Shown piece after piece: positions 27,169 to 64,000 of a stretch of DNA of 64,000 nt. The position numbers and the translations under genes are program-made. Numbering within the stretch: position 1 is the stretch's first letter; each line of letters starts with the position of its first letter. The stretch is taken from assembly GCF_009914755.1 (NCBI RefSeq), contig NC_060931.1, one strand, 5' to 3'. The notes under the pieces are model-generated. The model did not search any database. It saw nothing but the letters and a program-made list of their open reading frames with translations, and was not told the origin of the DNA. This DNA is from the human T2T-CHM13v2.0 reference genome, Homo sapiens.

Positions 27169-28424
27169 AGGATATTGCTTATTACTCAAAATCACTATAT
27201 AAAGCCCCTGAAAAATTGAAAGCTGCAACCAGGGAAACACTGAAAATCTCCAAGAACACTGTGTTTCTTCTTAAAGACAGTGAGAAAAAGCACATACATC
27301 TGTTTTCCTTTTAGTGTTGGCCACCAGGAAGCTCAGAGCCAAATTTATGATGCAATTTTAATAACTATGTAAGCCCCTATGGCCTGCTTATCTGTGTTCT
27401 TATTCCTGGCCTTTCATTTTATTCTGACTTTTCTTTTTCTTCATCCTGATTGTATTAGCTCATCTTTATTTTTCTATATTATATGAGTTATGGTAAGCAA
27501 CTTCAAATTCAGCTTACGGAGAAGCAAGGCATTCGTAAATCTTTTTTTTTTTTTTTTTTTTTTTCTGAGACTCTTACTCTATCGCCCAGGCTGGAGTGCA
27601 GTGGCACGATCTTGGCTCACTGCAACCTCCACCTCCCGGGTTCCAGCAATTCTCATGCCTCAGTCTCCCGAGTAGCTGGGATTAGAGGCGCCCACCACGA
27701 CACCGGGCTAATTGTTTTTGGTTTGTTTTTTGTATTTTTAGTAGAGACGAGGTTACACCATGTAGGCCAGGCTGGTCTTGAACTCCTGACCTCAAGTGAT
27801 CCACCTGCCTCGGCATCCCAAAGTGTTGGGATTTGGCGTGAGCCACTGTACCCGGTCCATGAATCATTTTTTAAAAATAGTTTTTAAATTTAAAACATAG
27901 TTTTGCACATTAAAAAAAAAAGTTTTGCACAGGTCGAACAGAGTGTCCCCGGAGGTGGTGGTGGGAAGATCAGGTCATAGGTGTGTGTCTCTGGAGCTCC
28001 AAGCACTGGCCAGGGTTGATTTGGATTGGGTCAGAAAAATACAACGAAAAAAGGAAAAAGGATGGCAATTGATTGCCATCCCCAGAGGGAGGGGCCGAGG
28101 GTTCGCCCAGTCACCCACAGTGGCATCCTTGCAAGGTGCTAGTTGCACAGCTCCTCTAAGTCCCTCCCGCACTGGCGCGCTCGGCCCCGCCCCTACCCTG
28201 CCCCGCCCCTGCCCCACCCCTTTCTCCCCCGGGCTCCACCCCTCGCGCGCGTCGCCTCAATCTCCGCCCGCAGATCCGGCCTCCCCGGCGGTTGCGCACT
28301 CCACCCCCACCCTCCGCGCCCGCCCGCTCTTTCCCCGCCCCGTCCAGCTCACTCCTTTCGGGGCGGTTGGGCCGCGCGCCTGTGGGGGCGGGGCCCGGAG
28401 CAGGCGACCGAGCCAATGGGGCGC

Positions 28425-28448
28425 GGCGGCGGCGGCGGCGGCGGCGGC
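28425..28448 (+). repeat. (GGC)8 trinucleotide repeat in promoter/5' leader
   Basis: Eight consecutive GGC units directly after the CCAAT box. Confidence 0.95.
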
Positions 28449-28555
28449 CGCGGCAGCTGGGTCGGGTCCCGACGGGTGGCGGCGGCTGAGGTGGAGGCGG
28501 AGGGAGGCGGTGGAGGCGGAGGGAGGCGGAGGGAGGCGGTGGCGGCGGCGGCAAG

Positions 28556-28749
28556 ATGGCCACGGCCGTCCTGCTGAGCGTGTCGGTGCCGCGGTGGGAG
28601 CGGGTGGCCCGGTATGCAGTGTGCGCTGCCGGAATCCTGCTCTCCATCTACGCCTACCATGTGGAGAGGCAGAAGGAGCGGGACCCCGAGCACCGGGCCC
28701 TCTGCGACCTGGGGCCCTGGGTGAAGTGCTCCGTCGCCCTTGCCTCCAG
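28556..28749 (+). pseudogene. VKORC1L1: Duplicated copy of VKORC1L1 coding exon 1 (gene fragment, reading frame open)
   Basis: Translates to MATAVLLSVSVPRWERVARYAVCAAGILLSIYAYHVERQKERDPEHRALCDLGPWVKCSVALAS(R). This matches the VKORC1L1 N-terminus with about 5 substitutions versus the recalled human protein. Strong Kozak (GCAAGATGG), 194 nt, phase-2 donor CAG|GTAGCC at 28750. No downstream VKORC1L1 exons were found, so this is a paralogous fragment rather than the gene. Confidence 0.93.
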
Positions 28750-62440: not shown

Positions 62441-63631
62441 GTAAGAGAATGCAACTGTTTGTAGAGGAAAAACTAGATGTAGTACATGTGAGTTGAAGCC
62501 AGGAAAGATTCAAAATGGGGACCAAAAAAAAAAATCTTTTGCTTTGCAATTTGACACCAGTACTATTAGGGAAGTCTGGGTTCTAAAATGGGATAAAATA
62601 GGATATTAATAAAAAATGGAATGACTAAGTATAATAATTAAGGGAGTAGAGTAGACTGAGTAATTTTGGTATAGTTTTGTTGGAGATGTTGAGTGGTGGT
62701 AGATGGTTCAGATTAATGTTGAAGGATTTTCATATTGCATTTGCCTTAAACTCAGTTGTTTCTTTTTTTTTCTTTTTTTTTTTTTTTGAGACGGAGTCTT
62801 GCTCTGTTGCCCAGGCTGGAGTGCAGTGGCAAGATCTTGGCTCACTGCAACTGCTGCCTCCCAGGTTCACGCCATTCTCCTGCCTCAGCCTCCCGAGTAG
62901 CTGGGACTACAGGCACCTGCCACCACGCCTGGCTAATTTTTTGTATTTTTAGTTGAGATGGGGTTTCACCGTGTTAGCCAGGATGGTCTCGATCTCCTGA
63001 CCTCGTGATCTGCCCGCCTCAGCCTCCCAAAATGCTGGGATTACAGGCGTGAAGCACCGCACCCGGCCACCTTACTCAGTTTTTAATCAAGTACTATGAT
63101 AAGAAAATAGATTGGGTGATTATATTCATGGGTGAAAAACAGCTAAAGATAGCAAATAATGCCAGAAGAGGGGATCTAGAAATCTAATGAAATGGTGACA
63201 GCCCTGATCTTAGGCCCCTGTAACAAAACAACACAAATTAAGTACAAAGTAGGAGACAGATAACAGGTACATCCATGCAGTATGTGCAAGACCTATTGCT
63301 GTCAACATTATTATTTAATAAAAAAGATTTCTGGAATGAGGGAAATGATCAGTCCATTTTAGCCAGATTAGAGTTGCAGTGCTGTACTTTAGTATGGGTA
63401 AACAGAAATGTATCCAGAAGGAGAGAGGGGTGTTCAGGTCTTCTAAGTAGAAGTCAGACACTCCTCAAATATTGTGGACAGGGGTCATGGTTTAGAGTAG
63501 AAAATTGGGCTAACAGAGAAGCTTTGAATTCCCATAGTTAATACTGGAGGAAATGAGTCATCGGTGATAAGCAAAGCCACACACAATATTGTTGGTTCTT
63601 ATTGACTGAACTTACTTTGGTTGCCTTTTAG

Positions 63632-63705
63632 GTGAGCCCGTGGTAGCAGCAGAAGCAGGCATTATGGGATAACGATTGTGTAAAGAAACAGCTTCTTCAT
63701 TCCTG
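63632..63705 (+). pseudogene. CCT6A-derived exon 13 (74 nt; +1 frameshift)
   Basis: EPVVAAEAG then a shift to WDNDCVKKQLLHS; TAG|...|GTAAGT. Confidence 0.92.
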
Positions 63706-63965
63706 GTAAGTTTGGGAAAATGAAAACTAAACTGTTAGAGAATCATCATACTCTTCATTTGGTGTTTTCTGTTTAGTTGCTCATTTTCCCCCATGAATAA
63801 TGTAATCAGCTGAAAGTATGGAAACTGAACTAGCCCTCTGATGTGTAGAGGGGAAGGGGGAAATTTAATTGGATGTTAACGTGTGCAGCTTAGTTGGAAG
63901 TGGGAAGTTGAGTCGAATTAGGGCTCCTAATCATCTGAGCTATCTAATTTTTATCCCCCTTTCAG

Positions 63966-64000
63966 CACTGGTTGCCACCAACATTCTCTTGGTTGATGAG
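63966..64000 (+). pseudogene. CCT6A-derived exon 14 (start only, cut by the window end)
   Basis: TTTCAG|CACTG GTT GCC ACC AAC ATT CTC TTG GTT GAT GAG = VATNILLVDE, with a small deletion at the start. Confidence 0.9.

What the first reader, a model, noticed from the sequence alone, without database searches (positions are those of the whole stretch)
28150..64000. Promoter-capture chimera: VKORC1L1 promoter/exon 1 fused to a decapitated CCT6A copy, forming a probable dedicated snoRNA host
Seen: a CpG island and VKORC1L1 exon 1 with an intact GT donor. The next recognisable exon, 26.4 kb downstream on the same strand, is CCT6A exon 3 with an intact acceptor. Exons 3-14 follow in order; CCT6A exons 1-2 and VKORC1L1 exons 2-3 were not found. 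Established: H/ACA snoRNAs are released from spliced introns of Pol II hosts, and CCT6A hosts SNORA22/SNORA15-family RNAs. Inference: a duplication juxtaposed two unrelated gene halves, so these snoRNA copies are now under VKORC1L1-type control rather than chaperonin-gene control. The locus probably already has a name (CCT6P3); what may be under-described is its fusion origin and regulatory rewiring.
Basis: partly seen in the sequence, partly recalled or inferred. Interest (0 to 1): 0.85.

Follow-up and report, generated by a model that had tools for sequence, protein, structure and literature searches.

The report
Known VKORC1L1–CCT6 fusion pseudogene hosting snoRNAs
This is CCT6P3, a non-coding human transcript that starts at a duplicated copy of the VKORC1L1 promoter and first exon, splices into a headless copy of a chaperonin pseudogene and carries two snoRNAs in its introns; the arrangement is real but was already described in 2012.

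Summary
The window holds one CpG island (28150-29300). It has an open VKORC1L1-type exon 1 (ATG 28556, GT donor after 28749). The next gene-like exon, 55186-55320, encodes CCT zeta residues 68-112, which is exon 3. Homologues of exons 3-14 follow in order. No trace of CCT6 exons 1-2 or of later VKORC1L1 exons was found. SNORA22C and SNORA15B-1 are full-length Rfam matches in two introns.

- The CCT6 half was copied from the pseudogene CCT6P1 (97.8% identity), not from CCT6A (80-91%). It was already dead: its frameshifts and the lost exon-6 donor are shared with CCT6P1.
- The locus is a mosaic of two duplicated blocks joined intron to intron at base 53085. Their ages differ: 2.0% versus 1.09% non-CpG divergence from their parents, p 6e-17. 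A single duplication event is therefore unlikely.
- It is not under-described. The GENCODE pseudogene paper (2012, Fig. 3g) reports transcripts that start in VKORC1L1P, use the parental donor and run into CCT6P3 with its two snoRNAs. A 2025 review says HGNC lists CCT6P3 as a snoRNA host gene.

One small new point: GENCODE called VKORC1L1P "processed", but it is an unprocessed duplicate. Verdict: already known, low interest.

The parts
1380..53085 (+). Duplicated VKORC1L1 5' block: about 27 kb of upstream sequence, the promoter, exon 1 and 24.3 kb of intron 1
   Evidence: Collinear with G000:C7:67069819-67124450 at 94-96% identity; non-CpG divergence 2.0% (937/46960). Window-only insertions lie at about 23081-24528 and 29569-30785. 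A 5.5-kb stretch of the parent is missing at 47638.
28150..29300 (.). CpG island, the VKORC1L1-type promoter
   Evidence: GC 0.76, o/e 0.81; the only island in the window. A CCAAT motif and GC-rich boxes are retained against the parent. Annotated transcripts run off it in both directions (hub annotation).
28538..28749 (+). CCT6P3 exon 1, which is VKORC1L1-type exon 1 (ATG at 28556; GT donor at 28750-28751)
   Evidence: It differs from the parental exon at 5 of 64 codons at the protein level (read from the alignment).
28750..55185 (+). Hybrid first intron of 26.4 kb: the 5' 24.3 kb comes from VKORC1L1 intron 1 and the 3' 2.1 kb from CCT6P1 intron 2
53084..53086 (.). Junction of the two duplicated blocks
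   Evidence: The VKORC1L1 match ends at 53085 and the CCT6P1 match begins at 53084/53085. The switch is sharp, with 1-2 bp of overlap. It lies about 104 bp downstream of the exon-2 homologue in CCT6P1.
53085..64000 (+). CCT6P1-derived block, from intron 2 onward; it runs past the window end to at least +72528
   Evidence: 97.8% identity to G000:C7:66974546-66994000, non-CpG divergence 1.09% (202/18606). Only 80-91% identity to CCT6A.
55186..55320 (+). CCT6 exon 3 homologue (residues 68-112), second exon of NR_033416.1
56186..56319 (+). SNORA22C, an H/ACA snoRNA in the intron between exons 3 and 4
   Evidence: RF00414, 159.6 bits (gathering score 80), model positions 1-134 of 134. It differs at 2 nt from the CCT6P1 copy; the C at 56289 is specific to this copy.
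56440..57237 (+). CCT6 exon 4 (56440-56613) and exon 5 (57132-57237) homologues
   Evidence: AG/GT present. Exon 5 carries a +2 frameshift relative to CCT6A, shared with CCT6P1.
58262..58372 (+). Relic of CCT6 exon 6, not used in NR_033416.1
   Evidence: Donor changed from GT to TT and an in-frame stop, both shared with CCT6P1.
58643..60671 (+). CCT6 exon 7-10 homologues (58643-58797, 58896-58977, 59848-59944, 60533-60671)
   Evidence: AG/GT present. Indels of -5, -1 and -9 nt relative to CCT6A are shared with CCT6P1.
60725..60859 (+). SNORA15B-1, an H/ACA snoRNA in the intron between exons 10 and 11
   Evidence: RF00398, 157.7 bits (gathering score 47), full length. 100% identical to the CCT6P1 copy.
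61096..61229 (+). CCT6 exon 11 homologue
62338..62440 (+). Relic of CCT6 exon 12, not used in NR_033416.1
   Evidence: AG/GT intact, in-frame stop.
63632..64000 (+). CCT6 exon 13 (63632-63705) and the start of exon 14 (63966 onward, running off the window)

Best explanation
CCT6P3 is a transcribed, non-coding chimera assembled from two segmental-duplication blocks.

Block 1 (window 1380-53085) copies the 5' part of VKORC1L1: about 27 kb of upstream sequence, the CpG-island promoter, exon 1 and 24 kb of intron 1. Block 2 (53085 onward) copies the older unprocessed pseudogene CCT6P1 from about 100 bp into its intron 2 to beyond its 3' end. It therefore lacks the CCT6A-type promoter and exons 1-2 that CCT6P1 still has.

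The break fell inside an intron on both sides. The VKORC1L1 exon-1 donor and the CCT6 exon-3 acceptor therefore now bound one hybrid 26.4-kb intron.

Transcription from the VKORC1L1-type island gives a spliced RNA. Its only start-proximal reading frame is 73 codons and stops 9 codons into the second exon, so the RNA is non-coding and probably a target of nonsense-mediated decay (inferred). Two of its spliced introns carry intact H/ACA snoRNAs, SNORA22C and SNORA15B-1. These are expected to be released from the excised introns in the way established for intronic H/ACA snoRNAs.

The CCT6 frame was already broken before the fusion. The two blocks most likely arrived at different times, the VKORC1L1 block first.

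Shown here: the anatomy, the parentage, the junction, the age difference and the intact snoRNAs. Taken from annotation and print: the transcripts. Inferred: promoter activity, snoRNA output from this copy, and the order of events.
For: Block map and identities.

Sharp junction at 53085.

CCT6P1 keeps CCT6A-like upstream sequence, a CpG island (66972800-66973800) and the exon 1-2 region. The window has no remnant of these.

Exon numbering against solved CCT zeta chains.

Lesions shared with CCT6P1: indels in exons 5, 7, 8, 10 and 13, and the exon-6 donor change GT to TT.

Divergence 2.0% (937/46960) against 1.09% (202/18606), Fisher p 5.8e-17. It is fairly even within each block and steps at the junction.

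Fusion reading frame stops after 73 codons.

snoRNAs above Rfam gathering scores and full length. Their copies at CCT6P1 and CCT6A.

Transcripts: NR_033416.1 (hub annotation) and PMC3491395 Fig. 3g legend. A 2025 review says HGNC lists CCT6P3 among non-coding snoRNA host genes (PMC11833636 passage). The 135-nt SNORA15B-type RNAs at two chr7 places have a Northern-blot entry in snoSeeker's table (PMC1636440 passage).
Against: - No expression, CAGE or methylation data were available here. Promoter use and snoRNA output from this copy rest on annotation and one figure legend.
- SNORA15B-1 is identical to the CCT6P1 copy and SNORA22C differs at 2 nt. Published snoRNA signals therefore cannot be assigned to this locus.
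- A CRISPR knockout reported as complete loss of SNORA22 left its predicted target, 28S-U4966, pseudouridylated (PMC10454564, abstract and passages). The function of the SNORA22 family at that site is in doubt.
- The age difference could come from block-wide gene conversion between CCT6P1 and CCT6P3 rather than from two events.
- An older, dead copy of the VKORC1L1 block (start codon changed, donor GT to AT) keeps an equally CpG-rich island (o/e 0.85). CpG retention alone does not show that this promoter is active.
- The annotated start at 28538 lies in purine-rich repeats and is not a 5'TOP start.
Confidence: 0.85

Rival explanations
1. One reading: one duplication fused the VKORC1L1 promoter and exon 1 directly to a copy of the functional gene CCT6A, removing its head.
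For: CCT6A is the ultimate ancestor. It is collinear with window 53103 onward and hosts both snoRNA types in the same introns.
Against: The CCT6 block is 97.8% identical to CCT6P1 but only 80-91% identical to CCT6A. All frame-breaking indels and the exon-6 donor loss are shared with CCT6P1. CCT6P1 is a full-length copy with a CCT6A-like island. The two blocks differ twofold in divergence.
Confidence: 0.03
2. A single event. A head-to-tail duplication of the roughly 150-kb interval from CCT6P1 intron 2 (66974546) to VKORC1L1 intron 1 (67124450) created the junction while leaving both parents whole. The junction-bearing piece later moved about 0.7 Mb, and gene conversion with CCT6P1 halved the divergence of the CCT6 block.
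For: The geometry fits. In the parent region CCT6P1 lies 120 kb upstream of VKORC1L1 on the same strand, and the junction joins the end of the downstream segment to the start of the upstream one, as a tandem duplication would. The junction has only 1-2 bp of overlap.
Against: The VKORC1L1 homology stops at window 1380 (parent 67069819) and does not run back toward CCT6P1. Divergence is fairly uniform within each block and steps at the junction, so conversion would have to cover all 19.4 kb examined and stop exactly at the junction.
Confidence: 0.2
3. The chimeric transcript is a by-product of a duplicated promoter and matters little. Cellular SNORA22 and SNORA15-type RNAs come mainly from CCT6P1 and CCT6A, and this copy is redundant.
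For: Identical or near-identical snoRNAs exist at CCT6P1, and related ones at CCT6A. SNORA22C has one private change that makes a non-standard pair in the 3' hairpin and scores 2.7 bits lower than the CCT6P1 copy. Loss of SNORA22 had no effect on its predicted target site.
Against: All exons used by the curated transcript keep their splice sites, and both snoRNAs are intact. At roughly 1% divergence this is expected even without selection, so it is weak evidence.
Confidence: 0.3
4. VKORC1L1P is a processed (retrotransposed) pseudogene that happened to land upstream of CCT6P3, as labelled in the 2012 GENCODE figure legend.
For: Only exon 1 of VKORC1L1 is recognisable as coding sequence, so it looks like a single-exon fragment.
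Against: The exon sits inside about 52 kb that is collinear with genomic VKORC1L1, including upstream sequence, the promoter and 24 kb of intron 1. A retrocopy would carry none of these.
Confidence: 0.01

Closest known systems
CCT6P3 / VKORC1L1P as described in the GENCODE pseudogene resource (Pei et al. 2012, PMC3491395, Fig. 3g legend; section 9 read in full)
   Same: It is the same locus. [quoted passage not shown]
   Different: The paper calls VKORC1L1P 'processed'. Here it is shown to be part of a roughly 52-kb unprocessed duplication. The paper gives no breakpoint, no immediate parent (CCT6P1) and no ages.
CCT6P1 (host of SNORA22 and of the second SNORA15B copy)
   Same: It is the immediate parent of the CCT6 block, at 97.8% identity. 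It has the same broken reading frame, the same lost exon-6 donor and the same two snoRNAs in the same introns.
   Different: CCT6P1 keeps a CCT6A-type CpG island and the exon 1-2 region. CCT6P3 lost them and uses a VKORC1L1-type island. CCT6P1 also has two private 1-bp deletions, in exons 4 and 11.
Non-coding snoRNA host genes (the SNHG class, GAS5 and others; the HGNC list is quoted in PMC11833636, passage seen)
   Same: A spliced Pol II transcript without a meaningful reading frame whose introns carry snoRNAs. An early stop codon lies far upstream of the last exon junction.
   Different: It arose from the fusion of two pseudogene fragments rather than from decay of one gene. The annotated start is not a 5'TOP start, which many classical host genes have (the TOP property is recalled, not taken from a call).
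Chimeric transcripts born at junctions of segmental duplications (other panels of GENCODE Fig. 3; the wider literature is recalled, not searched here)
   Same: An intron-to-intron junction lets the donor of one gene splice to the acceptor of another. The promoter comes from the 5' partner.
   Different: The product here is non-coding. Its plausible payload is intronic snoRNAs, not a fusion protein.

Membership tests
SNORA22 (Rfam RF00414), H/ACA snoRNA | Full-length match to the covariance model above the gathering score | tested here: met
   159.6 bits against a gathering score of 80, model positions 1-134 of 134, at 56186-56319. One non-standard pair is caused by the private C at 56289.
SNORA22 (Rfam RF00414), H/ACA snoRNA | ACA box three nucleotides from the 3' end and an ANANNA hinge box | tested here: met
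   The RNA ends ...ACAUUA and has AGAGCA in the hinge, read from the alignments. The box definitions are recalled.
SNORA22 (Rfam RF00414), H/ACA snoRNA | Guides pseudouridylation of its predicted rRNA site | not testable with these tools
   PMC10454564 (abstract and passages) reports that loss of SNORA22 did not lower 28S-psi4966.
SNORA15 (Rfam RF00398), H/ACA snoRNA | Full-length match above the gathering score | tested here: met
   157.7 bits against a gathering score of 47, model positions 1-137 of 137, at 60725-60859. Identical to the CCT6P1 copy.
Non-coding snoRNA host gene | snoRNAs lie in sense orientation inside introns bounded by used splice sites | tested here: met
   SNORA22C lies between exons 55186-55320 and 56440-56613. 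SNORA15B-1 lies between 60533-60671 and 61096-61229. All have AG/GT. Exon use is taken from NR_033416.1 in the hub annotation.
Non-coding snoRNA host gene | No long or conserved reading frame | tested here: met
   The fusion frame stops after 73 codons. The CCT6 frame is broken by stops and frameshifts from exon 5 onward.
Non-coding snoRNA host gene | 5'TOP transcription start (common in the class, not obligatory; recalled) | tested here: not met
   The annotated start at 28538 lies in GGAGG/GGC repeats, not in a C followed by a pyrimidine tract.
Duplicated (unprocessed) pseudogene, as opposed to a processed one | Introns and flanking genomic sequence of the parent are retained | tested here: met
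   Both halves are collinear with the parental genomic DNA, introns included. The 'processed' label for the VKORC1L1 part is not met.
Chimeric gene formed by segmental duplication | Two identifiable parent loci and a defined junction | tested here: met
   Parents at C7:67069819-67124450 and C7:66974546 onward; junction at window 53085.
Chimeric gene formed by segmental duplication | A transcript that crosses the junction by splicing | not testable with these tools
   Rests on NR_033416.1 (hub annotation) and on the PMC3491395 legend. No RNA data were available here.

The most novel reading that the evidence does not exclude
In humans the best-preserved SNORA22 copies sit in the pseudogene hosts CCT6P1 and CCT6P3 (162.3 and 159.6 bits), not in CCT6A (143.8 bits, with a 4-nt insertion and 6 substitutions in the 3' half). 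The capture of a VKORC1L1-type promoter could then have given great apes a second supply line for SNORA22 and SNORA15B with its own regulation. That supply line would be kept by selection on snoRNA dosage, so CCT6P3 would be a functional gene and not a by-product.
Probability: 0.1. Interest if true: 0.4.

Novelty: already known. Interest (0 to 1): 0.15.

Why it matters
It matters little beyond bookkeeping. The locus is a clean, base-resolved example of an intron-to-intron junction between duplicated blocks. That junction gives an old pseudogene, and the snoRNAs in its introns, a new promoter.

The useful corrections are these:
- The CCT6 part descends from CCT6P1, not from CCT6A.
- The VKORC1L1 part is an unprocessed duplicate, not a retrocopy.
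- The two blocks differ in age.
- SNORA15B-1 cannot be told apart from its CCT6P1 twin, so any paralog-specific snoRNA assay must rely on the two variant positions in SNORA22C.

Tried and rejected
- A 20-kb own-genome search with window 28000-47999 returned only dispersed-repeat hits and was uninformative. Shorter or unique queries worked.
- A Pfam scan of 119 stop-to-stop reading frames from the CCT6A and CCT6P1 upstream regions was too insensitive for short exons. It gave one weak Cpn60_TCP1 hit, E 0.053, in 119 frames. I replaced it with searches of single exons against solved structures.
- I considered a Pfam scan of all frames in 29-55 kb for hidden exons. I dropped it in favour of collinearity, a low-stringency blastn and a VKOR family search of the genome.
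- I had planned to use CpG retention as a proxy for an unmethylated, active island. I rejected it as discriminating evidence because the dead older copy keeps an island too.
- I asked for more flanking sequence: the 57.0-Mb copy, sequence upstream of the window, and sequence beyond 65.03 Mb. The left edge of the VKORC1L1 block and the right edge of the older copies therefore remain only roughly placed.
- Earlier scan notes were not available.
- Searches for prior print were: 'CCT6P3' (9 papers); SNORA22C, SNORA15B and SNORA22B names (8 papers); 'CCT6P1'+'VKORC1L1' (1 paper); VKORC1L1P, LOC441241 and 'VKORC1L1 pseudogene' (3 papers); 'CCT6P1'+'SNORA22' (3 papers). Among the papers whose passages I read, only PMC3491395 describes the fusion. 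For the rest I saw search listings only, and no supplements were read.
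Full report
**1. What is in the sequence**

The window has a single CpG island, at 28150-29300. It has GC 0.76, CpG observed/expected 0.81 and 133 CpGs, and no other 500-bp window passes the island criteria.

Inside the island an ATG at 28556 opens 64 codons plus 2 nt, which end at a GT donor at 28750. The peptide matches a solved VKOR-like protein at E 8.8e-18. 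A Pfam VKOR search of the whole genome finds this exon at 28.4 bits and the true VKORC1L1 exon 1 at 29.5 bits. It finds no other VKOR match in the window. The last exon of the true gene lies 52 kb beyond the point where homology to the window ends.

The next annotated exon, 55186-55320, has an AG acceptor and encodes CCT zeta residues 68-112, with all 45 residues identical in the printed alignment. At the CCT6A locus, residues 1-45 and 46-67 are encoded by two upstream exons. The label 'exon 3' is therefore correct.

All 10 annotated downstream exons have AG acceptors, and the 9 that end in the window have GT donors.

Two CCT6A exons are absent from NR_033416.1 but are present as homologues:
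- Exon 6 (58262-58372) has its donor changed from GT to TT and carries an in-frame stop.
- Exon 12 (62338-62440) has intact splice sites but carries a stop.

Rfam finds full-length SNORA22 (56186-56319, 159.6 bits) and SNORA15 (60725-60859, 157.7 bits) in two introns.

**2. Parentage and junction**

Searches of the window's own genome and local alignments show two blocks.

The first block, window 1380-53085, is collinear with C7:67069819-67124450. That region is the sequence upstream of VKORC1L1, its promoter, exon 1 and the first 29 kb of intron 1. Identity is 94-96%.

The second block runs from window 53085 to at least 72528, past the window end. It is collinear with the CCT6P1 locus from C7:66974546, at 97.8% identity. 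Identity to CCT6A is only 80-91%.

The switch is sharp, at base 53085, with 1-2 bp of overlap.

CCT6P1 is itself a full-length copy of CCT6A. It is collinear with CCT6A for at least 12 kb upstream, includes the exon 1-2 region and has a CpG island at 66972800-66973800. In CCT6P1 coordinates the junction lies about 104 bp downstream of the exon-2 homologue.

A low-stringency search with the CCT6A promoter/exon 1-2 stretch finds nothing in the window: 7 hits, best E 0.29.

The frame-breaking indels in exons 5, 7, 8, 10 and 13 and the lost exon-6 donor are shared by the window and CCT6P1. The chaperonin frame was therefore dead before the fusion.

**3. Ages**

Non-CpG divergence is as follows:

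| Comparison | Divergence | Counts |
|---|---|---|
| VKORC1L1 block vs its parent | 2.0% | 937/46960 |
| CCT6 block vs CCT6P1 | 1.09% | 202/18606 |
| CCT6 block vs CCT6A | about 7% | 1155/15901, all HSPs listed |

The twofold difference between the first two is significant (Fisher p 5.8e-17). It is fairly even within each block in 2-kb bins and steps at the junction.

I infer that the VKORC1L1 block is the older resident and that the CCT6P1 copy was joined to it later. A single event followed by block-wide gene conversion remains possible.

Calibrations are recalled, not taken from any call. About 1% is of the order of the human-chimpanzee distance, so the CCT6 block would date to the African-ape period and the VKORC1L1 block to about twice that age. 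No primate genome could be searched here.

**4. How it works**

The break fell in an intron on each side. The VKORC1L1 donor and the CCT6 exon-3 acceptor therefore bound one hybrid 26.4-kb intron.

The curated transcript NR_033416.1 (hub annotation) uses exactly this splice. The GENCODE paper describes two transcripts that start at the VKORC1L1 pseudogene and use the parental donor.

Exon 1 ends in phase 2 and exon 3 begins in phase 0. The reading frame therefore shifts and stops after 73 codons, with nine exon junctions downstream. The RNA is non-coding and probably subject to nonsense-mediated decay (inferred).

Its plausible payload is the two intronic H/ACA snoRNAs. SNORA15B-1 is identical to the CCT6P1 copy. 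SNORA22C differs from the CCT6P1 copy at 2 nt, of which the C at 56289 is private to this copy and creates one non-standard pair.

Between the window and CCT6A, the SNORA15 region differs at only 3 alignment columns in about 135. The 5' hairpin of SNORA22 does not differ at all, while the surrounding introns are about 88-89% identical. This suggests constraint on the snoRNAs since the CCT6A/CCT6P split.

The CCT6A copy of SNORA22 scores lower than the pseudogene copies (143.8 against 159.6-162.3 bits). The Rfam seed may include the CCT6P1 copy, which would bias this comparison.

**5. What is known**

The fusion, the use of the parental donor and the two hosted snoRNAs are stated in the legend of Fig. 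3g of the GENCODE pseudogene resource, 2012 (PMC3491395; section 9 read in full). A 2025 review says HGNC lists CCT6P1 and CCT6P3 among the non-coding snoRNA host genes (PMC11833636, passage). snoSeeker (2006) lists two 135-nt chr7 snoRNAs, SNORA83A and SNORA83B, with a Northern-blot entry, a predicted target of 18S-psi1367 and hosts LOC441242 and LOC441241 (PMC1636440, table passage).

The other papers that name CCT6P3 or these snoRNAs are gene lists or expression screens. I saw some as passages and the rest as search listings only.

- the base-level junction;
- CCT6P1 as the immediate parent;
- the unprocessed nature of VKORC1L1P, contrary to the 2012 label;
- the age difference between the blocks.

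**6. Limits**

No RNA, CAGE or methylation data were available. Promoter activity and snoRNA output from this copy are therefore not shown here.

CpG retention is not decisive. An older, dead copy of the VKORC1L1 block at C7:64.99-65.02 Mb has a changed start codon, its donor changed from GT to AT, and frameshifts, yet it also keeps a CpG-rich island.

A knockout reported as complete loss of SNORA22 left 28S-psi4966 unchanged.

The left edge of the VKORC1L1 block (about window 1380, next to an Alu) and the full extent of the older copies are therefore only roughly placed.

**Verdict**

Noticed in passing
G000:C7:64990001-65024034 (+) and G000:C7:56985752-57014768 (-); loci L002, L004, L025-L028: There are two older copies of the same VKORC1L1 5' block, 82-93% identical to the window, on either side of the chr7 centromere region in inverted orientation. 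They are about 98% identical to each other. The 65.0-Mb copy has a changed start codon, its donor changed from GT to AT, and frameshifts, but it still has a CpG-rich island. The 57.0-Mb copy lacks the promoter and exon 1 altogether.
   Followed up: partly
window 47638: About 5.5 kb of VKORC1L1 intron 1 (C7:67113497-67119042) is present in the parent and in the older 65.0-Mb copy but missing here. It is therefore a deletion on the window's lineage.
   Followed up: partly
window 28426-28545: The 5' UTR and promoter carry (GGC)n and GGAGGGAGGCGG-type repeats whose lengths differ from the parent. The window has about 26 extra bases in the GGAGG repeat and about 27 fewer in the GGC tract. The annotated transcript start at 28538 lies just after the window-specific expansion.
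   Followed up: no
window 13377-13483 (-): U6 snRNA pseudogene, 84.3 bits and full length but with many substitutions. It matches the annotated RNU6-1229P.
   Followed up: no
G000:C12:39769652-39769779 (-) and G000:C22:19626581-19626674 (+); loci L032, L036: Dispersed extra copies of the snoRNAs lie outside any CCT6 context. One is a 90% identical SNORA22-like copy on chr12. The other is a 94% identical partial SNORA15-like copy on chr22 covering bases 42-135. Both are probably retrocopies.
   Followed up: no
PMC3491395, Fig. 3g legend: The 2012 GENCODE paper labels VKORC1L1P a 'processed' pseudogene. The 52-kb collinearity with genomic VKORC1L1 shows it is a duplicated, unprocessed fragment.
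   Followed up: yes
hg19 chr7:64541193 as printed in the paper (a few kb beyond the 3' end of CCT6P3 by my recollection of hg19 coordinates; not mapped here): In a survey of parent-of-origin effects on methylation, a table row labelled CCT6P3 lists probe cg20849893 with SNP rs10949962 (PMC6077796, table passage). A neighbouring row is labelled LOC441242.
   Followed up: no
L022:267-380 and L018:7153-7506 (upstream of CCT6A and of CCT6P1): Weak Pfam DUF5559 matches (E 0.03 and 1e-4) occur in reading frames about 1.3 kb upstream of the CCT6A start codon and at the homologous place upstream of CCT6P1. They are unexplained; they could be a neighbouring gene's exon or chance.
   Followed up: no
window 51641-54732 (-): The predicted lncRNA LOC124901663 has an exon that runs across the duplication junction at 53085 on the opposite strand. 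If the transcript is real, it is also a product of the fusion.
   Followed up: no
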